Assembly: GCA_028869315.1 (NCBI GenBank) | Contig: JAGWSV010000029.1 | Coordinates: 6,304 to 70,303, forward strand | DNA length: 64,000 nt | DNA from: Rhodospirillales bacterium | GTDB lineage: Bacteria > Pseudomonadota > Alphaproteobacteria > Acetobacterales > Acetobacteraceae | Reading direction: 5' to 3' | Shown here: positions 44,609 to 53,627 of the stretch, piece by piece | Layout: the number at the start of each line of letters is the position of its first letter | Position numbering within the stretch: the first letter of the stretch is position 1 | The notes under the pieces: generated by a model | Seen by the model: the letters and a program-made list of their open reading frames with translations, nothing else | Database searches by the model: none | Told to the model about the DNA's origin: nothing | Program-made: the position numbers and the translations under genes

Positions 44609-45391
44609 ATGGCCGAGACCTTCCAAACCATCCTCGTCGAGACCCATGGTGCGGTCGGCCTGATCCGGCTCAACCGGCCGGCGGCGCTGAACGCGCTGTG
44701 CGACCAGCTGATGACCGAGCTGGGCGCGCAATTGCTGGCCTTCGACGCCGATCCGGCGATCGGCGCCATCGTGCTGACCGGCAGCGAGAAGGCCTTCGCC
44801 GCCGGCGCCGACATCAAGGAAATGCGCGAGCGCACCCATCCCGAGGCGCTGCTCGAAGATTTCATCGGCGCCCGGTGGGAGACGGTCACCAAGGTCAAGA
44901 AGCCGGTGATCGCCGCGGTGGCGGGCTTCGCGCTCGGCGGCGGCTGCGAGCTCGCCATGATGTGCGACCTGATCCTGGCCGCGGACACGGCGAAATTCGG
45001 CCAGCCGGAGATCAATCTCGGCGTCATCCCCGGCGCCGGCGGCACCCAGCGCCTGACCCGCGCGGTGGGTAAGTCGAAGGCGATGGAGATGGTGCTGACC
45101 GGGCGGATGATGGATGCCGCCGAGGCCGAGCGCGCCAACCTGGTGGCCCGCGTGGTGCCCGCCGCCGAGTTGATCGGCGAAGCGCTCAAGCTTGCGGCAA
45201 AGATCGCCGCGTTGTCCCCGGTGGCGGTGGCGGTGGCGAAGCAGGCGGTGAACCGGGCCTTCGAGACCACACTTGCGGAAGGCGTGCGGGCCGAGCGCAC
45301 CCTGTTTCTGCCGCTGTTCGGGACCCCCGACCAGAAGGAAGGCATGGCTGCGTTCGTGGAGAAGCGAAAGCCCGCGTTCTCGCGCCGCTGA
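44609..45391 (+). CDS. Enoyl-CoA hydratase (crotonase family)
   Basis: [21 protein letters not shown] and [15 protein letters not shown] motifs are present. Confidence 0.9.
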
Positions 45392-45486
45392 GACCCGCCA
45401 CACTGCGCGACGGTTCCTTGACACTCCCCGAGCCGGCTCCTACAACCCGCGGCTTCCCGAACCGACCCATCCGAGCGACAGGACGC

Positions 45487-45756
45487 ATGGCCAATACCGC
45501 TTCCGCGCGTAAGCGCATCCGTCAGACCGAGCGCCGTACGGCGCGTAACAAGGCGCGCAAGTCCCGCGTCCGCAACTTCGTCAAGAAGGTGGAGACTGCG
45601 ATCGCCGGTGGCGACAAGGCCGCCGCCGCCGAGGCGCTGCGCGCTGCCCAGCCGGAGATGCAGCGCGCCGTCGGCAAGGGCGTCATGCACCGCAACACGG
45701 TCGCACGGCGACTGTCACGGCTTTCGGCCCGGATCAACGCGCTGAGCGTTGGCTGA
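45487..45756 (+). CDS. rpsT: 30S ribosomal protein S20
   Basis: The N-terminus reads [36 protein letters not shown]. Confidence 0.93.
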
Positions 45757-45761
45757 GCCCG

Positions 45762-45792
45762 GCAGGGCGCGCGGGACCGCGCGCCCTGCTTT
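45762..45792 (+). terminator. Rho-independent terminator after rpsT
   Basis: A 12-bp GC stem (gcagggcgcgcg / cgcgcgccctgc) closes a ggac loop and is followed by ttt. Confidence 0.6.
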
Positions 45793-46100
45793 CCCGCTCG
45801 CCACCCGTCCGGACAAAGTGTTCAGCGCTCCGGAATATACGAGCGACACGATCATAGAACTGACGTAAGTATTGTTGGCGACAGACCAAGTCGCACGGAC
45901 GCAATCTTCTTTCTTTGTGCCACCGCAGGTCTTGTTGATGACGGTTTTTCGTTGTCCGCCGGCTTGGTTCGGGTTAATCGTTAACTCGCAGTAAGCCAAT
46001 GTCGACCGCTCCTTACTGCGGTGCGACATAAATATTTCGAACGGAATAAACGGGGCGGAGAGCGTGACCGAATGGTCACGCATGGGCTGGGAATGGCGCG

Positions 46101-47561
46101 GTGACGGCGCACACTGACGGGGCGAAGCGCGGGATGACCAGTGGACCGGGAGGCGAAGTGGTAGCCGGCCTTCAGCTGGACACGCAGCTGGAGGTTCAGT
46201 GGGATCGCATCCGGACACGATTGCAAACCGAGCTTGGTGAGGGCGAATACCGCGCCTGGCTCCGTCAGGCCTGTGTCGGCAGCCTGGACGGCGAAGAACT
46301 CACCCTGCTTCTACCGACCAATTTCCTGCGCGATTGGGTACGCGGCCAGCACGGCGCGCGGCTGAGCGCCGCTTGGCAGGCGGAGAACCCGGCGGTTCGC
46401 CGGGTCGATGTGCGCGTGGGCACGCCGCCGGCCGTACCGATCGCCAGCGAGCGCAATGCCGCCGGCGGCCTTCCCGCGATGCCGCGGCCCCCGGAACGCG
46501 GCGGCGATGCGGCCGGCCGGAACGGCGATCTCGCCGGCTCGCTCGATCCACGCTTTACATTCAGCAATTTCGTTGTCGGGAAGCCGAACGAATTCGCCTA
46601 TGCCTGCGCCCGGCGGGTGGCCGAACGCCCCGCCAGCCACGGCTTCAATCCGCTGTTCCTGTATGGCGGGGTCGGTCTCGGCAAGACCCACCTGATGCAC
46701 GCAATCGCCTGGGAGCTGCCGACCCACAGCGGCGCGCCCGGATCGTCGGTGGCGTACATGTCGGCCGAGAAGTTCATGTACCGCTTCATCGGCGCGATCC
46801 GGTCGCAGGCAACGATGGAGTTCAAGGAGCAGCTGCGCAGCGTCGACGTGCTGATGATCGACGACCTGCAGTTCCTGATCGGCAAGGACAATACGCAGGA
46901 AGAATTCTTCCACACGTTCAACGCACTGGTCGACAGCGGCAAGCAGATCGTGGTCTCCGCCGACAAGTCCCCCTCCGACCTGTCGGGGATCGAGGACCGG
47001 CTGCGCACCCGGCTTGGCTGCGGCATGGTGGCGGACCTGCACGCCACCACCTTCGAGCTGCGCATCTCGATCCTGGAAGCGAAGGCGGCCTCGGCCGACG
47101 TCTTGGTGCCGGGCAAGGTGCTGGAATTCCTGGCGCACAAAATCACCACCAACGTGCGCGAACTGGAAGGCGCGCTGAACCGGCTGATCGCCCACGCGAA
47201 CCTGTTCGCCCGGCCGATCACTCTGGAAACCACCCAGGAAGTGCTGCACGACATCCTGAAGGCACACGACCGGCGGGTGACGATCGACGAAATCCAGCGC
47301 CGGGTGGCGGAGCATTACAACATCCGGCTCACCGACATGGCCTCGCCGCGGCGGGCCCGCAATGTCGCCCGCCCCCGCCAGGTGGCGATGTACCTCGCCA
47401 AGCAGCTCACCAGCCGCAGCCTGCCTGAGATCGGCCGCAAGTTCGGCAACCGCGATCACACGACGGTCATGCACGCGGTCGCCCGCGTCGGTGAGCTGAT
47501 GGCGCGCGACGCCGGCTTCGCCGACGACGTCGATCTGTTGCGGCGCATGCTGGAAGCCTGA
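46101..47561 (+). CDS. dnaA: Chromosomal replication initiator DnaA
   Basis: AAA+ motifs are present (NPLFLYGGVGLGKTHL, LMIDDLQF). The C-terminal DNA-binding domain reads RQVAMYLAKQLTSRSLPEIGRKFGNRDHTTVMHA. The start is either GTG 46101 or ATG 46134. Confidence 0.93.
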   Translation: MTAHTDGAKRGMTSGPGGEVVAGLQLDTQLEVQWDRIRTRLQTELGEGEYRAWLRQACVGSLDGEELTLLLPTNFLRDWVRGQHGARLSAAWQAENPAVRRVDVRVGTPPAVPIASERNAAGGLPAMPRPPERGGDAAGRNGDLAGSLDPRFTFSNFVVGKPNEFAYACARRVAERPASHGFNPLFLYGGVGLGKTHLMHAIAWELPTHSGAPGSSVAYMSAEKFMYRFIGAIRSQATMEFKEQLRSVDVLMIDDLQFLIGKDNTQEEFFHTFNALVDSGKQIVVSADKSPSDLSGIEDRLRTRLGCGMVADLHATTFELRISILEAKAASADVLVPGKVLEFLAHKITTNVRELEGALNRLIAHANLFARPITLETTQEVLHDILKAHDRRVTIDEIQRRVAEHYNIRLTDMASPRRARNVARPRQVAMYLAKQLTSRSLPEIGRKFGNRDHTTVMHAVARVGELMARDAGFADDVDLLRRMLEA

Positions 47562-47646: not shown

Positions 47647-49011
47647 TCACGTTCCGACCGCACGGAGCAATGTCGGCAGGTCGAGCCGACCGAGGCTTTC
47701 CGCCGCCACGCCATCGATCAGATCGGCGAACAGCGCGCGCTTTTCGACCAGGATCGCGGCGATCCGCTGCTCGATGCTGTCCGGCGTCAGATAGGCGAAT
47801 ACCTGCACCGGGCGGGTCTGGCCGATCCGGTGCGCGCGGTCCTCGGCCTGTGCCTCGGCCGCCGGGTTCCACCAGCGGTCGAAATGAAACACCACCGAGG
47901 CAGCAGTCAGGTTCAACCCGACCCCGCCGGCGCGCAGCGAAGCGACCAGGACCCGTCGCTCCGGATCGGCGGCGAAGACGGCGACCGCGCGGTCGCGCGC
48001 CGCCGGGCTCATGCGTCCGGTCAGCAGCAGCGGCCGGAACGGGGCGAGGGCGTCGGCGAGCCACTCTGCCCCGAACGGCGCCGCCACGAATTGCGTGAAT
48101 ACCAACACCTTCTCGCCCGCCTCCGCGACCGCCGCGATGCGCCGGCGCAGATCCTCGCATTTGGCCGACTCGCCAGTTTCCGGGCAGGCATTGCAGATCT
48201 GCTTGAGCCGCAGGATCAATTCCAGCACATGCACGATCCGTACGCGCGCACCGAGGTCGCGCAGCCAGACCAGCCCCTCGCGCTCGGCCGTATCATAGGC
48301 GGCGCGCTGGCGCGGGCTCAGATCGGGGGCGAGGGTGAAGGCGCTTTTGGGCGGCAGTTCCGGCAGCACCGCGGCGCGCCGCCGGCGCAGTTGCACGGTG
48401 CCGAGCGCGTGGCGGATGCCCGACAGCAACGCGCCGCGCGGGCAGACGCCGGGGGCAACGAAATCGAGGATCGAAACCGCATCGTCCGGGTGGTTTTCGA
48501 GCGGCGTGCCGGTCAGCGCCCAAGCGCGGTCGCGCGGCACCGCCTTCACCGTAGCGGCGAGATCGGTGCCGGCATTCCTGATGCGTTGCGCCTCATCAGC
48601 CACCACCACCTGCCATCGCCGCCGCAGCGGACCATACGGGGCGGGCAAGGCGGCATCGGCGCGCAACGCGTCGTAGCCCACCAGGAAGACCTGCGCCGGC
48701 GCGCACCAGCGCCGCCGGCGCTCCGCCGCCGGCCCGGCGCAAGTGGCGAGCACGAGGTCCGGCGCCCACTCCCGCAGATGCCGGCGCCATTGCAGCACCA
48801 GGCTTGCCGGCACCACCACCAGCACCGGCCCCGGCGCGCCCGCCGTCAGCAGCAGCCGCAATGCGGCGATCGCCTGCACGGTCTTGCCGAGACCCATTTC
48901 GTCGGCGAGCAGCACGCCAGGTTGCGCCAGCAGTCGCGCTACGCCCTGCCGTTGCCAAGGCGGCAGCGGCGCGGGCCAGGTCAGGCCGAACGCCTCAGCC
49001 GCCGCGCCCAT
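47647..49011 (-). CDS. Minimal SNF2-family helicase/translocase (core ATPase only, 454 aa)
   Basis: SNF2 motifs are present: LLADEMGLGKT (I), VVVPASLVLQW (Ia), VVADEAQRIRN (II), ALTGTPLEN (III), KVLVFTQF (IV), AGGVGLNLTAASVVFHFDRWWNP (V) and QAEDRAHRIGQ (VI). It is the last gene of a four-gene operon. Confidence 0.85.
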   Translation of the reverse strand: MGAAAEAFGLTWPAPLPPWQRQGVARLLAQPGVLLADEMGLGKTVQAIAALRLLLTAGAPGPVLVVVPASLVLQWRRHLREWAPDLVLATCAGPAAERRRRWCAPAQVFLVGYDALRADAALPAPYGPLRRRWQVVVADEAQRIRNAGTDLAATVKAVPRDRAWALTGTPLENHPDDAVSILDFVAPGVCPRGALLSGIRHALGTVQLRRRRAAVLPELPPKSAFTLAPDLSPRQRAAYDTAEREGLVWLRDLGARVRIVHVLELILRLKQICNACPETGESAKCEDLRRRIAAVAEAGEKVLVFTQFVAAPFGAEWLADALAPFRPLLLTGRMSPAARDRAVAVFAADPERRVLVASLRAGGVGLNLTAASVVFHFDRWWNPAAEAQAEDRAHRIGQTRPVQVFAYLTPDSIEQRIAAILVEKRALFADLIDGVAAESLGRLDLPTLLRAVGT

Positions 49012-49017
49012 CCCGGA

Positions 49018-50250
49018 TCATTCCGCCTCCTCCCCCTCCGGCGGGGCGGCATCGAGGCTCGCATCTTCAGCGTAGTTGGTCGTCAGCGTCTCGGTCACCA
49101 GCGCGTCCCGCCGGCCGAGCAGCCGGGCGAGGTCCCATTGCGTCACCCATGACTTGATGTAGTGGCGCATGGTGCGCGAGCTGGTGCGTATCGCCGGCGG
49201 CAGATCGGGAGCCGGCCAGTCATAGGCCTCCGTGTAGAGCACGCGCAGCTTGTCGTGGCAGGCGACGAGGTCGTGCGCTTCCGGCGCGGCGAGGCGATGG
49301 GTGCGCACGCTGCGCTCGATCGCGGCGATGCCGGCGGCCGCGAGCGCCGCTTCATCGTCGCGGCCCTTGAGGCGCAGGCGCTCGGGCAGGCGCTCGCTGT
49401 CGAGCTTGGGATTGATGACCGCTTCGACGAAATCGTCGGTGATCGCGAACAGCGCGACGAGGCCCGCCGGCCGCCGCGCCGCCCCGAACCCGAGCCAGCC
49501 GGCCAGCTGCGCATAGGCCAACGCCCGTTGCAGCGGCGTATAGCGGCCGATCAGCTCGACCTCGTCGAGCAGCAGGCACCAGGGGCCGTAGCCGGCGGCG
49601 CGGAACAGCATCGGCAGGAACGCGATGCGCTGGGCCGCGAGCTGGCGTGGATCGATCCGCGTGAGCGGAAACGTGCCGCGCGCCCCGGCCGCGCGCAGCG
49701 CGGCACGCACGGCCGGGGTGGGAATCCGGCTGCCGCCCAGCATGCGTTCGATGCCGCGCAGCAACTCGGGCGGGCTTGCGGAACGGCGCAGCAGGAACGG
49801 CACGGCGGCGAAGATCGGCGCGAAGCCTGCCTCAGGTGCGCTGACTGCATCCTCCAGCGCCTGCGCCCGGTCGGGATGGGCGCGCAGCTGCGCGAGGCAG
49901 GCGCCGAGCGCATCGTCAGGCCCATCCGGCAGCACCGCGTTGCGCACCGCGGCGGCGAACACGGCGGTGGGGTTCGCGAGCGGGGTTTCCTTGCTGATCG
50001 CGACCCGGCTGACGATGGCGCGCTGGCCGCGCGCGACCTCGGCCAGATAGCCGAGCAGATGCGACTTGCCGGTGCCGAAGCCGCCGGCGAAGCCGAACCC
50101 TGGCGCCGCGTTCGGCTGCCAGGCGGCTTCCAGCGCACGTTCGAAATCAACCTCGATCAAGGTGTGCTCGTTGCCCATCCGGCGGATGGCGGTGCGGTTG
50201 GGCACGCCGGCGCGCAGGGCCTCGATCGCGATGCGCGCCTCGAGGTTCAT
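49018..50250 (-). CDS. P-loop NTPase, possibly DUF2791/BrxD-like
   Basis: Walker A is GGFGTGKSHLLGY and Walker B is CLLLDEVELI. An N-terminal ALRAGVPNRTAIRRMG segment precedes the P-loop. The start ATG at 50250 overlaps the upstream stop (ATGA). The family assignment is from memory and was not searched. Confidence 0.7.
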   Translation of the reverse strand: MNLEARIAIEALRAGVPNRTAIRRMGNEHTLIEVDFERALEAAWQPNAAPGFGFAGGFGTGKSHLLGYLAEVARGQRAIVSRVAISKETPLANPTAVFAAAVRNAVLPDGPDDALGACLAQLRAHPDRAQALEDAVSAPEAGFAPIFAAVPFLLRRSASPPELLRGIERMLGGSRIPTPAVRAALRAAGARGTFPLTRIDPRQLAAQRIAFLPMLFRAAGYGPWCLLLDEVELIGRYTPLQRALAYAQLAGWLGFGAARRPAGLVALFAITDDFVEAVINPKLDSERLPERLRLKGRDDEAALAAAGIAAIERSVRTHRLAAPEAHDLVACHDKLRVLYTEAYDWPAPDLPPAIRTSSRTMRHYIKSWVTQWDLARLLGRRDALVTETLTTNYAEDASLDAAPPEGEEAE

Positions 50251-51203
50251 GCGGCCAGCCACACCAGCGGCGCGACCGGATTCTGGCCCATGCCCGGGCG
50301 CACATCCGGCCAGACCCGCATCCGGAGTGCGTCATAGGAATCGAGCGTGCGACGCGGCTCCCCGGCGATCAGCGCCTCGGTATCCAGCACCACCGCGAAC
50401 AGGCCTGGCAGGTGCTCGGCATCGTCGATCAGTTCGCGCAGCACCTCGAACGTGTCCATCACCGCGGCGGGGGAGTATCGCAGCCCGTCCTCGAGTGCGG
50501 GGCGGGGCAGGTGCAGGCGGCGGGCATCGAGCGTGACCAGCAGTCCTGCCGCGCCGCAAGCCCGCACCCAGTGACAGAGCGAGATCAGCATCGCGCGCGC
50601 ATTGGCCCGGGTGATGCGCCCGCCGATACCGGCCGCGCGCAGCTGTACCGCCGACGGTTTTTCGCCGTGCAGCCACTGGTGTACCGGAGCGGCGGCGTCT
50701 GGATCGGGGTCCAGCGCGGCGTCGCAAAGCTTCAGCATCCCAACGCGGAAATCGAGCGCGTAGGCGCGGTTCTGCCAGATCGCGCGGGTGAGCCAGGCAT
50801 TGATCTGATGGTCGAGCAAGGGCGGTGCGATCGCCAGCGCCTCGGCCAGCGCCGCGCGCGATAGCTTCCGACTCGGATGTGGCCACGCATAGGCGTTGGC
50901 GGCAAACAGCTTCTCCAGGAAGCTCTGCGCCAGCGCGGTCCAGTCCATGGCACGGGCGAGTGCGAAGAACAGATCCTGCGGCATGTGCAGCCGCGTGTCC
51001 GCGGCGTCGATCGCAACCGGAAGCAGTTGGTGCCGGCGGGCCAGCCCGCCGAGCCGTGCGATCGCGGGCGCGATCAGTGTCTCCTCCATCACGGCAATCC
51101 TGAGCGCAGCGCCGCCAGCGGGCACGAACTCCGCCAGATACTCCGACGTCACGATTTCGAGCCAGGCGCCGAGAGCGATCGGTTCCGGAGAGAGGTCCTC
51201 CAT
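50247..51203 (-). CDS. Hypothetical protein (318 aa), second gene of the SNF2/P-loop operon
   Basis: It is a continuous ORF with host-like codon composition. The start ATG at 51203 lies 1 nt after the upstream TGA. I see no Walker A. Strand-Asp segments (LLVTLDARR, FAVVLDTE) hint at a degenerate NTPase. Confidence 0.55.
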   Translation of the reverse strand: MEDLSPEPIALGAWLEIVTSEYLAEFVPAGGAALRIAVMEETLIAPAIARLGGLARRHQLLPVAIDAADTRLHMPQDLFFALARAMDWTALAQSFLEKLFAANAYAWPHPSRKLSRAALAEALAIAPPLLDHQINAWLTRAIWQNRAYALDFRVGMLKLCDAALDPDPDAAAPVHQWLHGEKPSAVQLRAAGIGGRITRANARAMLISLCHWVRACGAAGLLVTLDARRLHLPRPALEDGLRYSPAAVMDTFEVLRELIDDAEHLPGLFAVVLDTEALIAGEPRRTLDSYDALRMRVWPDVRPGMGQNPVAPLVWLAA

Positions 51204-51204
51204 G

Positions 51205-52032
51205 TCACGAATCAAGTACGAATCGAATCGCGAAATAATCATGCTGCTCGCCCTGCTCGTCGAACAGCGTGAGGCGTTTGGCGCCTTTCTTGCCGGTGGA
51301 ACCGGCAAATTCGAACCGATGGCCGCGCGCCGCCCGAGCCTCGGGCACGCGGTCGAGGCGCAGCAGGTCGCAGACGAATTCTTCCACCGGATAGTCGGCC
51401 GCGGCGACCGGAGCGAGGGTCAGGACATCGTACAGGTCGGACAGCGAAACGACCGGCCCCGGGCCGGGCCGGTCGGGGCGCCAGCCCGGCGTCTCCGCGC
51501 GGGCGAGCAACGCATAGGGTTTCAGCATCCGGTCGAGAAAGCCGCCGGCGTTGAATCGACTGGGCCGCGATTGCAGCTTCTTGAGCTCGGCTGCCAGAAA
51601 AGCCGGGCGGATGCGCCGTTCGAGCTTCTTGCCGATCCGCACCGCCTGGGCGCGGGCATCGAGGCGAAGGATCACGGGATAGGCGGTGATCCGGCCGTCC
51701 CGTTGCACCAGGGTCAGTTCCGCCTGGCGTGCCGCAGTCGCCAACTCGCTCAGGTAGCTGCCGTCGGCGAATGCCGCAGCGGTGTCGTAGGCGAACGCAT
51801 CGGCCGCCGCGCGCAACGGCTCGGCGGCAGCGCGCGCGGCATCGGCCGCTTCGGTCATGCGGGACGCCAGTCCGGCAAGATCCCCCTCCTGCGACGCCCG
51901 ACGCAGGCGACGGAGGAGCTTCAGCACGCCGCTTAGCTGGCGCTCTGCATCCCCTACCACGACCTCGGTGCCGGCCAGCAAGGCCGCCAGCGATGTCGGT
52001 GCCAGGGGCGAGTCGGGCGTTGATGCATCCAT
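51205..52032 (-). CDS. Hypothetical protein (275 aa), first gene of the SNF2/P-loop operon
   Basis: The N-terminal half is Ala-rich and helical. The C-terminus reads RFEFAGSTGKKGAKRLTLFDEQGEQHDYFAIRFVLD. I recognise no family. No clear SD precedes ATG 52032. Confidence 0.55.
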   Translation of the reverse strand: MDASTPDSPLAPTSLAALLAGTEVVVGDAERQLSGVLKLLRRLRRASQEGDLAGLASRMTEAADAARAAAEPLRAAADAFAYDTAAAFADGSYLSELATAARQAELTLVQRDGRITAYPVILRLDARAQAVRIGKKLERRIRPAFLAAELKKLQSRPSRFNAGGFLDRMLKPYALLARAETPGWRPDRPGPGPVVSLSDLYDVLTLAPVAAADYPVEEFVCDLLRLDRVPEARAARGHRFEFAGSTGKKGAKRLTLFDEQGEQHDYFAIRFVLDS

Positions 52033-52424
52033 GACGTCAGGCTACCGACGCGGGGCGGCAGCGACAAGTAGCCCGGCGCCGGGGAGCGTCTCGGTTTGCA
52101 TGGCAAGTCGGCGCCGGCCGACACTCAACCGCGGCGAGCCTTGCCGGCAAGCGATCTTTGGGCCGCCGGGTTCGGATGCGGGAACGTGGCCGACTTGCGA
52201 CGCATTCATTAAATCGCGGGCGGATGCGTCATCCGGCTGCCTCCCCGGTCGACGCGACATGGATTCCGGGGCAGAGTAGCGTCGTTGGCAGGTGCAACTG
52301 CCGGGTGTATCGGGCGCGATCCGTTGGCGGACGCGGTTGCGAAGCCCGGTTACTCAGGATTGGGACGAGGTCGGCTGCCGTGCTGCAGGACCGCAGGTCG
52401 AGGTTGGCGGATGACCGATTTTCG

Positions 52425-53627
52425 GTGAAGGCCAGCTTGATTGACGATGGAGGGCAGTCGGCGCCGCGGCTCGGCGCCGAACTGGCGATTGCGCGCGAGC
52501 GCCTGGGCCGCACCCTGCCGGAATTGTCGCACCTGCTGCGCATCCGCACCCCGTACCTGCAGGCGCTGGAACAGGGGCGGATCGATGCCCTGCCGGGCCG
52601 GGCCTACGCGCTTGCGTTTCTCCGCACCTATGCCACGGCGTTGGGATTGGATCCGGATGAGGCGGTGCGCCGCTTCAAGGCCGAAGCCGCGGCCTTCGGC
52701 GACAAGATCGAACTGGATTTTCCTGCCCCGCTGCCGGAGCGTGGGCTGCCGACCGGGGCGTTGCTGCTGCTCGGCCTCGTACTCGCGGTGGGGGCCTATG
52801 CCGGCTGGTACCGGCTGTCTGGCGATGGACGCCTGCCGGCCGAGACGGTGCAGCCCGTGCCGGCGCGGCTGGCTCGGCTGGCCGCGCCGGAGCGGCCGGC
52901 CCCGGAGGCAACAGCGGGCAGCACAACGGGCAGCACAACGGGCACCCCGCCCGGCCCGTTGGTGAGCGCCGGTCGCGGCGGCGCGGGCTCTGGCGCATCG
53001 CTCGGCGCTGCCGGAGGCGCTGCGGGAACCGGAAGCGTGGCCGGACCGTCGACCGGCGTCGCCGCCGCGACACCGGCAAGCGGGACAAAGACCGCCCTCT
53101 CCACCGTGGCCACCACCGGATCCGGGGCTGGCGCGGGAGCCGGCCCGACACAGTCTGTGACGGCGCCGCCGCCGGATGTGGCGCCCGGGTCCGCCGCCGC
53201 GGCGACCCCGACGCCGGCGGAGGACGCGGCGATGCTAGCCTCCGGCCCCGCGTCCAGGCCAGCGCTCGCGGTGCTCGCCACCGCGGATGCCTGGGTACAG
53301 GTGCGGTCCGATAGCGGAGCGGTGGTCTTCAGTCGTCTGCTGCACGCGGGCCAGAGCTGGACGGTTCCCCCTGGGCAGACCCTGACCCTGACCACCGGCA
53401 ATGCGGGCGGGACGGAGCTGGTCCGCAACGGGACACCCTCGGCCCCCCTGGGTATGCCGGGCGCGGTGCTGCACAACGTACCATTGGGGCCCGCCACGCT
53501 CACCGGCCCCGTCACTGGCGCTCCAATCACTGGCGCCCCAATCACTGGCGCCCCAATCACTGGCGCCACCGTCACTGCCCCGGTGCCGGGCGCGGCTACC
53601 CAGACCGCTTCCACCGGGACGCGTTGA
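52425..53627 (+). CDS. rodZ: RodZ-like cytoskeleton protein (HTH, TM, low-complexity linker, DUF4115-like C-domain)
   Basis: An XRE-type HTH is present (LGAELAIARERLGRTLPELSHLLRIRTPYLQALEQGRIDALPGRAYALAFLRTY). A TM helix and a Gly/Ala/Thr/Pro-rich linker follow. The C-domain reads DAWVQVRSDSGAVVFSRLLHAGQSWTVP. It sits upstream of ispG as in many bacteria. The start is uncertain, with GTG 52425 as my proposal. Confidence 0.7.
   Translation: MKASLIDDGGQSAPRLGAELAIARERLGRTLPELSHLLRIRTPYLQALEQGRIDALPGRAYALAFLRTYATALGLDPDEAVRRFKAEAAAFGDKIELDFPAPLPERGLPTGALLLLGLVLAVGAYAGWYRLSGDGRLPAETVQPVPARLARLAAPERPAPEATAGSTTGSTTGTPPGPLVSAGRGGAGSGASLGAAGGAAGTGSVAGPSTGVAAATPASGTKTALSTVATTGSGAGAGAGPTQSVTAPPPDVAPGSAAAATPTPAEDAAMLASGPASRPALAVLATADAWVQVRSDSGAVVFSRLLHAGQSWTVPPGQTLTLTTGNAGGTELVRNGTPSAPLGMPGAVLHNVPLGPATLTGPVTGAPITGAPITGAPITGATVTAPVPGAATQTASTGTR
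53513..53577. repeat. 15-bp in-frame tandem repeat (about 4 copies) at the rodZ 3' end
   Basis: The sequence reads cactggcgctccaat / cactggcgccccaat / cactggcgccccaat / cactggcgccaccgt. It encodes (ITGAP)n. Confidence 0.85.

What the first reader, a model, noticed from the sequence alone, without database searches (positions are those of the whole stretch)
47647..52032. Tightly coupled four-gene operon (unknown, unknown, P-loop ATPase, minimal SNF2 helicase): candidate uncharacterised defence or DNA-processing system
What the sequence shows:
- Four minus-strand genes sit between dnaA and rodZ-ispG and are packed for translational coupling. The junctions are TGA-1 nt-ATG at 51203-51207, an ATGA overlap at 50247-50250, and a 6-nt spacer at 49012-49017.
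- The last gene is a bare SNF2 core of 454 aa. All seven helicase motifs are present and there is no accessory domain.
- The third gene is a P-loop NTPase with Walker A GGFGTGKSHLLGY and Walker B CLLLDEVELI.
- I cannot place the first two proteins (275 and 318 aa) in any family. The second may be a degenerate NTPase with no Walker A.

What I infer:
- A small ATPase paired with a helicase recalls BrxD plus BrxHI in BREX type 2. It also recalls the TerB-ATPase-helicase Shango system and the TerB-associated SNF2 / DUF2791-like ATPase operons reported from comparative genomics.
- I see no TerB, methyltransferase, PglZ or nuclease motif here, so the cluster does not fit a named system by eye.
- No integrase, tRNA or obvious compositional break flanks it.
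Basis: partly seen in the sequence, partly recalled or inferred. Interest (0 to 1): 0.8.

Follow-up and report, generated by a model that had tools for sequence, protein, structure and literature searches.

The report
Unnamed BrxD-pair plus SNF2 gene cassette
Four tightly packed genes between dnaA and rodZ are a stripped-down copy of a widespread but unnamed bacterial gene cassette (a new protein, a dead and a live BrxD-type ATPase, and an SNF2 DNA motor) that looks like an anti-phage or DNA-surveillance system but has never been tested.

Summary

Profile searches refine it:
- G3 is a BrxD-type (PF10923) AAA+ ATPase.
- G2 is its catalytically dead paralog (Walker A in 0 of 111 relatives).
- G1 is a large family (666 representatives) with no Pfam, NCBIfam or PADLOC model and no significant fold match.

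No named system fits (Shango, BREX-2, Zorya, Hma).

Comparative genomics changes the picture. G1-G2-G3 is the invariant core in 140+ loci from Acetobacteraceae, Nitrospirae, Binatia and "Deltaproteobacteria" MAGs. Outside the alphaproteobacteria it is followed by a 188-aa gene and a roughly 740-aa SNF2 fused to a predicted active Mrr nuclease (ZorD-like). Toxin and STAND genes are sometimes inserted in between.

The window carries a reduced form: no 188-aa gene, no nuclease and no N-extension. In about 28 related loci the SNF2 is gone from the 4-8 kb held downstream, yet the triad stays under purifying selection.

The cassette sits at different housekeeping sites in each lineage. I found it neither in defence islands nor on plasmids or phages.

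Best reading: a new ATPase-sensor plus DNA-motor defence-type system, here in nuclease-free form. The function is inferred, not shown.

The parts
51205..52032 (-). G1, 275 aa. Founding member here of an unnamed protein family. [quoted passage not shown]
   Evidence: ORF. No Pfam, NCBIfam or PADLOC family, and none in 52 diverse relatives. 666 representatives at 50% clustering. AF2 models: pLDDT 83 for the full protein and pLDDT 88 / pTM 0.82 for the C-domain. No significant Foldseek hit in the PDB or BFVD.
51604..51618 (-). G1 motif RRIRP (residues 139-143). R142-P143 are invariant across the whole family.
   Evidence: Invariant columns in alignments A3 and A6. Coordinates.
51349..51384 (-). 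G1 conserved helix EEFvcDLLRLDR (residues 217-228). F219, D222 and L226 are invariant or nearly so. Candidate recognition helix of a winged-helix-like unit (inference).
50247..51203 (-). G2, 318 aa. Catalytically dead BrxD-type AAA+ paralog.
   Evidence: PF10923 at 3e-9, above the gathering score. PADLOC BrxD 1.9e-11. Walker A in 0 of 111 relatives. The Walker-B position keeps D but not E (LLVTLDA, 50523-50543). The profile aligns in register with G3.
49018..50250 (-). G3, 410 aa. Active BrxD-type (ORC/Cdc6-clade) AAA+ ATPase.
   Evidence: PF10923 at 1.3e-12. Walker A present in 95 of 95 relatives. NCBIfam BREX_BrxD scores only 29 bits against a cutoff of 350, so it is not BrxD itself.
50062..50085 (-). 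G3 Walker A, GGFGTGKS (residues 56-63).
49561..49575 (-). G3 Walker B, LLLDE (residues 226-230).
47647..49011 (-). G4, 454 aa. Bare SNF2-family ATPase core with no N-extension and no nuclease.
   Evidence: PF00176 and PF00271 only. PDB 1z63 at 2e-53. Lacks the N-extension, the Mrr domain and the 188-aa partner gene present in 20 distant loci. dN/dS about 0.15 against L001 and L002.
48880..48894 (-). G4 helicase motif I, GLGKT (residues 40-44).
48586..48597 (-). G4 helicase motif II, DEAQ (residues 139-142).
51201..51207 (-). G1 stop / G2 start junction, TGA-c-ATG.
50247..50250 (-). G2 stop / G3 start ATGA overlap.
49012..49017 (-). 6-nt spacer between the G3 stop and the G4 ATG. A GGAGG sequence lies upstream.
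52033..52499 (.). Divergent intergenic region between G1 and rodZ. It presumably holds the cassette promoter, but no sigma-70 consensus was found.

Best explanation
The four genes are a reduced, nuclease-free copy of a widespread, unnamed ATP-dependent DNA-surveillance cassette, most probably anti-phage or anti-plasmid.

Shown:
- G3 is an intact BrxD-type AAA+ ATPase and G2 is its dead paralog. They are always encoded side by side, and in many loci, including the window, their genes overlap.
- G1 is a new protein that always precedes them.
- An SNF2 motor follows in most lineages. Outside the alphaproteobacteria it is usually fused to a predicted active Mrr nuclease and preceded by a 188-aa gene.

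Inferred mechanism:
1. G2 and G3 form a hetero-oligomeric ATP switch.
2. G1, with its coiled-coil hairpin and a probably DNA-binding C-domain, supplies in trans the target-recognition surface that BrxD-type ATPases lack.
3. On sensing foreign or aberrant DNA, the triad loads or activates the SNF2 double-strand DNA translocase.
4. In the full version the translocase-nuclease then cuts the DNA, as ZorD does in Zorya.
5. In the window's version, which has no nuclease, the motor would instead strip or stall protein-DNA complexes on the target, or hand it over to a host nuclease.
For: Component homology:
- G2 and G3 match PF10923 and PADLOC BrxD.
- G3 of the full version also matches Shango SngB (1.8e-11).
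- The best PADLOC hits for the SNF2 are ZorD, DpdE and DrmD.
- The full-version SNF2 carries Mrr_cat (2e-25) with the D..GGID..QCK motif conserved in at least 90% of 20 sequences.

Linkage:
- The G1-G2-G3 order is invariant in every locus with enough sequence, apart from one decayed locus (L043).
- SNF2 is present in all evaluable loci outside the Acetobacteraceae clade.
- The 188-aa gene accompanies 25 of the 26 SNF2 genes that have the N-extension (20 of them also carry Mrr), and none of the 17 core-only SNF2 genes.

Accessory-gene behaviour:
- The family spans Acetobacteraceae, Nitrospirae, Binatia and 'Deltaproteobacteria' MAGs.
- The chromosomal site differs in each lineage, including the window's closest relatives.
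- PIN, DUF4258, DUF433 and a cyclase-AAA_16-TPR STAND-like gene are inserted inside the cassette in some loci.

The genes are functional: dN/dS is 0.08-0.39.

[quoted passage not shown] It forms a dyad with a helicase and is proposed to be a helicase loader (PMC12839542).
Against: - There is no experimental evidence for any member.
- The window version has no recognisable nuclease or other effector, and no methyltransferase or other self/non-self marker exists in any locus examined.
- The cassette is not in defence islands. Flanks are housekeeping genes in all annotated loci.
- It was not found on plasmids, phages or viral contigs. Only the distant-clade G1 was run against plasmids and only the window's G1 against deposited phages.
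- About 28 Acetobacteraceae loci keep the triad under purifying selection with no SNF2 in the 4-8 kb held downstream. The triad therefore has a function that does not need an adjacent motor.
- DNA binding by G1 is a guess. Fold searches gave only E of about 0.4 to winged-helix-type proteins.
- G2-G3 paralogy rests on independent Pfam hits plus a weak profile-profile alignment (probability 11%).
Confidence: 0.5

Rival explanations
1. The triad, with or without SNF2, is a cellular DNA-maintenance or regulatory machine, for example in replication restart, transcription-replication conflict or nucleoid remodelling. It would have been recruited from defence-type parts and would no longer be an immune system in Acetobacteraceae.
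For: - No nuclease in the window version.
- Housekeeping flanks everywhere.
- The triad persists under purifying selection after SNF2 loss.
- Not found on plasmids, phages or viral contigs.
- The bare SNF2 core is more conserved than the triad (84-86% identity, dN/dS about 0.15).
Against: - Patchy presence: 56 species-level MAGs in a scan of 185,579 species, and all are MAGs.
- The chromosomal position differs in each lineage.
- The sister clades carry an active-looking restriction nuclease.
- Every recognisable homolog belongs to an immune system.
Confidence: 0.2
2. The window's cassette is a decaying remnant of the five-gene nuclease system. It would be caught between loss of the nuclease and loss of the SNF2, and would no longer do anything useful.
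For: There is a stepwise series of reductions: 20 full loci, 5 without Mrr, 17 with a core-only SNF2, about 28 triad-only loci, and one lone truncated G1 in L043.
Against: - All four window genes are intact and overlap or abut one another.
- dN/dS is 0.15-0.39 against relatives at dS of 0.5-0.8.
- The core-only SNF2 form is conserved across two separate clades: the Acetobacteraceae clade and the L057/L060 clade.
Confidence: 0.15
3. The G2/G3 ATPase pair serves a mobile element, by analogy with the AAA+ target-selection ATPases TnsC, MuB and IstB. The cassette would be part of a transposon or integrative element.
For: - Variable chromosomal location.
- An IS21-type transposase lies 0.9 kb downstream in L050.
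- A tandem duplication of the triad in L024.
Against: - No transposase or integrase is linked to the cassette in the window or in the other annotated loci. The recombinase in L057 is next to DUF484, the usual XerC context.
- No tRNA in the window.
Confidence: 0.05
4. It is a divergent member of an already named system: Shango, BREX type 2, Zorya type I, or Hma / type-1 BR.
For: Shared parts only. A BrxD/SngB-like ATPase and an SNF2 similar to the helicase parts of ZorD and BrxHII.
Against: - No TerB, ZorA/B/C, PglX, PglZ, PglW, BrxC, DUF499 or methyltransferase is present.
- All equivalog scores are 4- to 12-fold below their cutoffs.
- G1 and the 188-aa protein match no PADLOC model.
Confidence: 0.03

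Closest known systems
BREX type 2 BrxD-BrxHI dyad
   Same: A stand-alone BrxD-family (PF10923, ORC/Cdc6-clade) AAA+ ATPase encoded next to an SF2 helicase. The ATPase has no DNA-binding domain of its own and is proposed to load or activate the helicase (PMC12839542).
   Different: - No PglX, PglZ, PglW or BrxC.
- The helicase is SNF2, not the Lhr/Ski2-like BrxHI.
- There are two BrxD-like proteins, one of them dead, plus the new G1 protein.
- The NCBIfam BrxD score is 29-39 bits against a cutoff of 350.
Shango (SngA TerB protein, SngB DUF2791 ATPase, SngC helicase)
   Same: A small operon of an accessory protein, a DUF2791/BrxD-type ATPase and a helicase. The full-version G3 hits PADLOC SngB at 1.8e-11.
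   Different: - G1 has no TerB, TerB-N or TerB-C domain.
- There is an extra dead ATPase.
- SngC does not appear among the 25 best PADLOC matches listed for the SNF2 helicase.
- The BrxD model scores higher than SngB for both G2 and G3.
Zorya type I effector ZorD (SNF2 helicase fused to an Mrr-like nuclease)
   Same: The full-version helicase is SNF2 plus a C-terminal Mrr_cat domain. It aligns to a ZorD model over both parts (PDLC00631, 4e-68, residues 162-737). The window's G4 is the same core (ZorD 2.8e-65; PDB 8qy7 8e-34).
   Different: - No ZorA, ZorB or ZorC.
- The ZorD N-terminal approximately 440 residues are absent.
- The window's copy has lost the nuclease.
- The NCBIfam ZorD score is 134 bits against a cutoff of 1500.
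Hma / type-1 BREX-related (DUF499 ATPase, N6-methyltransferase, SNF2 helicase-REase)
   Same: An ORC/Cdc6-type ATPase working with an SNF2 helicase that in most members carries a PD-(D/E)xK nuclease, which is missing in a minority (PMC12839542).
   Different: - No methyltransferase and no DUF499.
- The ATPase is the small BrxD type, split into a live and a dead subunit.
- The helicase lacks the TUDOR and inactive-REase domains described for those systems.
BrxA-BrxB-BrxC module of BREX type 1
   Same: By analogy only. The gene order is a small, possibly DNA-binding protein, then an inactive AAA+/STAND-like ATPase, then an active BrxC/BrxD-family ATPase (PMC12839542).
   Different: - G1 shows no detectable fold similarity to BrxA. 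No BrxA entry appears among the Foldseek hits.
- G2 is a BrxD paralog, not a BrxB-type iSTAND.
- G3 is a third the size of BrxC.

Membership tests
Pfam PF10923 BrxC_BrxD (DUF2791) ATPase family | Score above the Pfam gathering threshold (22.2 bits). | tested here: met
   G2 scores 36.8 bits and G3 scores 47.8 bits. The L096 homologs score 41.7 and 88.2 bits.
SNF2 family ATPase | SNF2-rel_dom plus Helicase_C, with motifs I and II intact. | tested here: met
   PF00176 at 126 bits and PF00271 at 63 bits. GLGKT and DEAQ are present. PDB 1z63 at 2e-53.
BREX type 2 | BrxD equivalog (NCBIfam NF033438, cutoff 350 bits). | tested here: not met
   G2 scores 39.3 bits and G3 scores 29.2 bits.
BREX type 2 | PglX methyltransferase, PglZ, BrxC and PglW in the locus. 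| tested here: not met
   The flanks are dnaA, rpsT, rodZ and ispG. None of these proteins appears in the annotated related loci.
BREX type 2 | BrxHI, an Lhr/Ski2-type helicase. | tested here: not met
   G4 is SNF2. The PADLOC BrxHI|BrxHII hit covers only the C-terminal lobe (2.3e-29, residues 269-427).
Shango | SngA with a TerB domain. | tested here: not met
   No TerB-type Pfam hit in G1 or in 52 diverse G1 relatives. No SngA hit in PADLOC.
Shango | SngB ATPase. | tested here: inconclusive
   No SngB hit for the window's G3, and G2 scores only 0.043. L096 G3 hits SngB at 1.8e-11, but BrxD scores better at 2.9e-20.
Shango | SngC helicase. | tested here: inconclusive
   SngC is not among the best 25 of 40 PADLOC families listed for G4. 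The top hits are ZorD, DpdE and DrmD.
Zorya type I | ZorD equivalog (NCBIfam NF041790, cutoff 1500 bits) including the Mrr nuclease. | tested here: not met
   134.5 bits, and no Mrr domain in the window's G4. The L096 full version scores 154 bits.
Zorya type I | The ZorA/ZorB membrane motor and ZorC. | tested here: not met
   Only chance-level coiled-coil hits of G1 to ZorA (E 0.015-0.07). No such genes are in the flanks.
Hma / DUF499-centred BREX-related systems | A DUF499 ATPase and an N6-adenine methyltransferase next to the SNF2 helicase. | tested here: not met
   Neither domain is present in the four proteins, the flanks, or the related loci. HmaA scores only 9e-15 on the C-lobe.
Defence-island resident (operational criterion for candidate immune systems) | Recurrent location next to known defence genes. 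| tested here: not met
   - Flanks are housekeeping or metabolic genes in the window, L001, L057, L060 and L144-146.
- The only link is toxin/STAND cargo inserted inside the cassette in L088 and L144-146.
- Only a handful of loci were annotated and no enrichment statistic was computed.

The most novel reading that the evidence does not exclude
The G1 / dead-BrxD / live-BrxD triad is an autonomous molecular machine of a kind not yet described. It would be an ATP-driven nucleic-acid sensor built around a protein with a new fold, able to act with no helicase or nuclease at all. That is how it is found in about 28 Acetobacteraceae lineages. It would plug into different effectors (an SNF2 core, SNF2-Mrr, or perhaps the embedded cyclase-STAND proteins) in other lineages.
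Probability: 0.25. Interest if true: 0.8.

Novelty: new variant of a known kind. Interest (0 to 1): 0.6.

Why it matters
BrxD-type ATPases occur in BREX type 2 and Shango, and nobody knows what they do. This cassette may isolate the BrxD module in its simplest natural setting.

Nature has already made a graded series of reductions:
- the full system with a nuclease;
- the motor without the nuclease;
- the triad alone.

That series gives ready-made constructs for asking three questions:
- What does the ATPase pair sense?
- Does G1 supply the missing DNA-binding surface?
- How is an SNF2 motor recruited?

If the cassette is protective, it adds a new system found mainly in uncultured soil and sediment bacteria (Nitrospirae, Binatia, Acetobacteraceae). 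It also adds two new protein families, G1 and the 188-aa partner. If the triad-only form is active, it would be a rare example of immunity, or of a domesticated immune module, with no recognisable effector.

Tried and rejected
Searches for a fold or family for G1:
- Foldseek with the full G1 model returned only coiled-coil noise, with nothing at E ≤ 0.001.
- Re-modelling the C-domain alone with a deeper alignment gave pLDDT 88. The best hits were still only E = 0.42 in the PDB and 0.17 in BFVD.
- A profile search of G1 against PDB sequences matched only designed coiled coils.
- The 612-aa and 353-aa 'fusion' relatives of G1 (P0124, P0138) turned out to be frameshifted metagenome calls, not real domain fusions.
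- I considered a PD-(D/E)xK nuclease in G1, prompted by weak MutH hits (E 0.5-1.6). I rejected it because the residues invariant across the family are mostly structural (G, P, Y, F, L, plus R142 and D222), with no D...(D/E)xK constellation.

Other protein comparisons:
- phmmer of G3 and of the 188-aa protein against the PDB found nothing useful.
- Pairwise BLAST of G2 against G3 showed no similarity. Paralogy rests on independent Pfam hits and a weak in-register profile alignment.

Searches for the cassette elsewhere:
The narrower alignment A5 worked.
- The second homolog search (A3) was swamped by the close clade.
- Plasmid, phage and viral-contig searches for G1 were all empty.
- The window's own contig is not in the encoding-contig index.

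Literature and RNA:
- Literature searches for DUF2791, BrxD-like/PF10923, TerB-N/TerB-C and Cdc6+Snf2+Mrr found no description of this architecture.
- The BREX-related (BR) systems and the ORC/Cdc6-HerA systems in two NAR papers are different architectures.
- An Rfam scan of the window was empty.

Full report
**1.

ORF listing and direct reading of the sequence confirm four minus-strand genes:
- G1, 51205-52032, 275 aa.
- G2, 50247-51203, 318 aa.
- G3, 49018-50250, 410 aa.
- G4, 47647-49011, 454 aa.

The junctions are exactly as described:
- G1/G2 is TGA-c-ATG.
- G2/G3 is an ATGA overlap at 50247-50250.
- G3/G4 is a 6-nt spacer at 49012-49017.

Pfam confirms the neighbours as GlgX-like, enoyl-CoA hydratase, S20 and DnaA on one side, and RodZ, IspG and a KpsF-like isomerase on the other. 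The window has no tRNA and no Rfam family. GC content shows no break across the cassette.

**2. What the four proteins are**

| Gene | Identity | Key evidence |
|---|---|---|
| G4 | Complete SNF2 ATPase core, nothing else | Pfam SNF2-rel_dom and Helicase_C only; PDB 1z63 (Sulfolobus Rad54-like core) at 2e-53 over residues 16-433; GLGKT and DEAQ intact |
| G3 | Active BrxD-type AAA+ ATPase | PF10923 BrxC_BrxD above the gathering score; Walker A in 95 of 95 relatives |
| G2 | Dead BrxD-type paralog | PF10923 independently and PADLOC BrxD 1.9e-11; Walker A in 0 of 111 relatives; Walker-B glutamate lost; profile aligns in register with G3 across the AAA+ core, but weakly (E 0.003, probability 11%) |
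| G1 | New family | No Pfam, NCBIfam or PADLOC hit |

**3. G1 is a large, unnamed family**

- An exhaustive profile search found 666 representatives at 50% clustering. Almost all are 255-290 aa and single-domain.
- None of 52 diverse members hits any Pfam model.
- AlphaFold2 gives a long N-terminal helical hairpin (about residues 15-103) and an alpha/beta C-domain. The full model has pLDDT 83. The C-domain alone has pLDDT 88 and pTM 0.82.
- Foldseek finds nothing significant in the PDB or BFVD. The best hits (E about 0.4) are RctB domains 2-3, MutH, the JetA C-terminal winged-helix domain and kleisins.
- Residues invariant across the family are mainly structural, plus R142-P143 and D222. There is no catalytic constellation. 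I read G1 as a non-enzymatic adaptor or recognition subunit, but that is an inference.

**4. The conserved unit is the triad, and the window's SNF2 is a reduced form**

A genome scan found 56 loci, all in Acetobacteraceae or Rhodospirillales MAGs.
- G1-G2-G3 always occur in that order.
- None of these loci has dnaA or rodZ-ispG nearby.
- A G4-type SNF2 follows in only about 14.

More distant G1 relatives (46-49% identity) keep G1, a BrxD-like protein (~315 aa), a BrxD protein (~411 aa) and an SNF2 (~452 aa) in other contexts.

A metagenome scan reached the clade that is about 30% identical to the window's G1. This clade includes Nitrospirae, Candidatus Binatia and 'Deltaproteobacteria' MAGs. 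There the triad is followed by a 186-188-aa gene with no known family. Next comes an SNF2 of roughly 740 aa with an N-extension and a C-terminal Mrr_cat restriction-endonuclease domain (2e-25). Its D..GGID..QCK motif is conserved in at least 90% of 20 sequences.

Across complete loci the tally is:

| SNF2 form | 188-aa gene | Loci |
|---|---|---|
| N-extension + Mrr | present | 20 |
| N-extension, no Mrr | present | 5 |
| N-extension, no Mrr | absent | 1 |
| Core only (includes the window) | absent | 17 |

**5. Repeated loss of the motor, with the triad retained**

On a G3 tree, SNF2-lacking Acetobacteraceae loci are interleaved with SNF2-bearing ones. There are about 28 such loci, each with 4-8 kb of downstream sequence and no SNF2 remnant. 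I could not test whether the SNF2 has moved elsewhere in those genomes.

| Comparison | dN/dS (NG86) |
|---|---|
| G1-G3 in SNF2-lacking pairs | 0.08-0.30 |
| G1-G4 in SNF2-bearing pairs | 0.09-0.39 |
| Window G4 against L001 and L002 | about 0.15 |

The triad is therefore maintained by selection with or without an adjacent motor. The window's four genes are not pseudogenes.

**6. Genomic behaviour**

The cassette sits between ordinary genes at a different site in each lineage:
- dnaA and rodZ in the window.
- PepA, HolC and cytochrome c on one side and MarR and ThiS-like on the other, in the closest relatives.
- PdxA and XerC in L057.
- Metabolic genes in L144-146.

I saw no defence island and no linked recombinase. 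G1 is absent from PLSDB plasmids, deposited phages and IMG/VR contigs. Only the distant-clade G1 was run against plasmids, and only the window's G1 against deposited phages.

The one defence-like contextual signal is cargo inserted between G3 and the 188-aa gene in some loci:
- a zinc-ribbon / cyclase / AAA_16 / TPR protein of 980-1137 aa;
- PIN, DUF4258 and DUF433 genes.

**7. Comparison with known systems**

- All NCBIfam equivalog scores are far below their cutoffs: BrxD 29-39 against 350, and ZorD 134 against 1500.
- There is no TerB, so it is not Shango.
- There is no PglX, PglZ, PglW or BrxC, so it is not BREX type 2.
- There is no ZorABC, so it is not Zorya.
- There is no DUF499 or methyltransferase, so it is not Hma or a type-1 BR system.
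- G1 and the 188-aa protein match no PADLOC model.
- Full-text searches found no description of this architecture.

The closest functional analogies are:
- the BrxD-BrxHI dyad, where the ATPase is proposed to load the helicase (PMC12839542);
- Shango's SngB-SngC pair;
- ZorD as a motor-nuclease effector.

**8. Most likely mechanism (inferred)**

1. G3 and its dead paralog G2 form an ATP-switch hetero-oligomer.
2. G1 provides the recognition or bridging surface.
3. The triad senses foreign or aberrant DNA and loads or activates the SNF2 translocase.
4. In the full version the translocase cuts the DNA through its Mrr domain.
5. In the window's nuclease-free version the motor would act by stripping or stalling complexes on the target, or by using a host nuclease.

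Confidence is about 0.5. The rivals are:
- a domesticated cellular function (0.2);
- a decaying remnant (0.15);
- a mobile-element accessory (0.05);
- a divergent member of a named system (0.03).

**9. Verdict**

The feature is real. The cassette is a new variant of the ATPase-plus-helicase class of defence-type systems, with two new protein families and an unusual natural series of reductions. Nothing about its function is shown experimentally, and the lack of defence-island context tempers the immune reading. Interest is 0.6.

Noticed in passing
L024:10001-13000 and L024:14718-17717: Two tandem copies of the G1-G2-G3 triad, 96.7% identical at the nucleotide level. They are separated by 1.7 kb that holds small ORFs, one of which I judged by eye to resemble DUF2442 (no family scan was run). 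This is either a recent duplication or an assembly of strain variants.
   Followed up: partly
L145:13067-17168, L146:13082-16752, L144:13258-17947, L088:7324-7967: Variable cargo is inserted inside the cassette, between G3 and the 188-aa gene. It comprises a 980-1137-aa zinc-ribbon / guanylate-cyclase / AAA_16 / TPR (STAND-like) protein, plus PIN, DUF4258 and DUF433 small genes. In L144 the large protein appears broken into several ORFs.
   Followed up: partly
L043:10001-10627: A lone, 5'-truncated G1 (residues 63-274) with no G2 or G3 in the 10 kb downstream. This looks like a decayed locus.
   Followed up: no
window 53480-53627: RodZ ends in tandem APITG-type peptide repeats, after a long Ala/Gly/Thr/Ser-rich linker.
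   Followed up: no
window 1-64000: There is no tRNA gene and no Rfam family at gathering score anywhere in the 64 kb.
   Followed up: yes
window 45000-47500: GC content falls to about 0.656 over rpsT-dnaA, against 0.70-0.75 around it. The cassette itself (0.69-0.73) matches its surroundings.
   Followed up: no
window 47647-49011 compared with 49018-52032: The bare SNF2 core evolves more slowly than the triad. Against L001 and L002 it shows 84-86% amino-acid identity and dN/dS about 0.15. G1-G3 show 69-73% identity and dN/dS 0.27-0.39.
   Followed up: partly
L050:13877-15403: An IS21-type transposase, identified by eye from its translation rather than by a family scan, lies about 0.9 kb downstream of a triad that has no SNF2.
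   Followed up: no
window 51982-52032: The public annotation of G1 (P0001, 258 aa) starts 17 codons downstream of the ATG that is conserved in homologs (275 aa).
   Followed up: partly
L081, L083, L084, L085, L133 (SNF2 ORFs of 563-580 aa): Within the distant clade, five loci keep the SNF2 N-extension and the 188-aa gene but lack the Mrr nuclease domain. L119 has a separate Mrr ORF. Loss of the nuclease has therefore happened more than once.
   Followed up: partly
L001:9007-9951: A PrmA/MTS-like class I methyltransferase is encoded divergently just upstream of G1 in L001 and L002 only. The Pfam match is weak (3e-6), and the gene is not conserved with the cassette.
   Followed up: no
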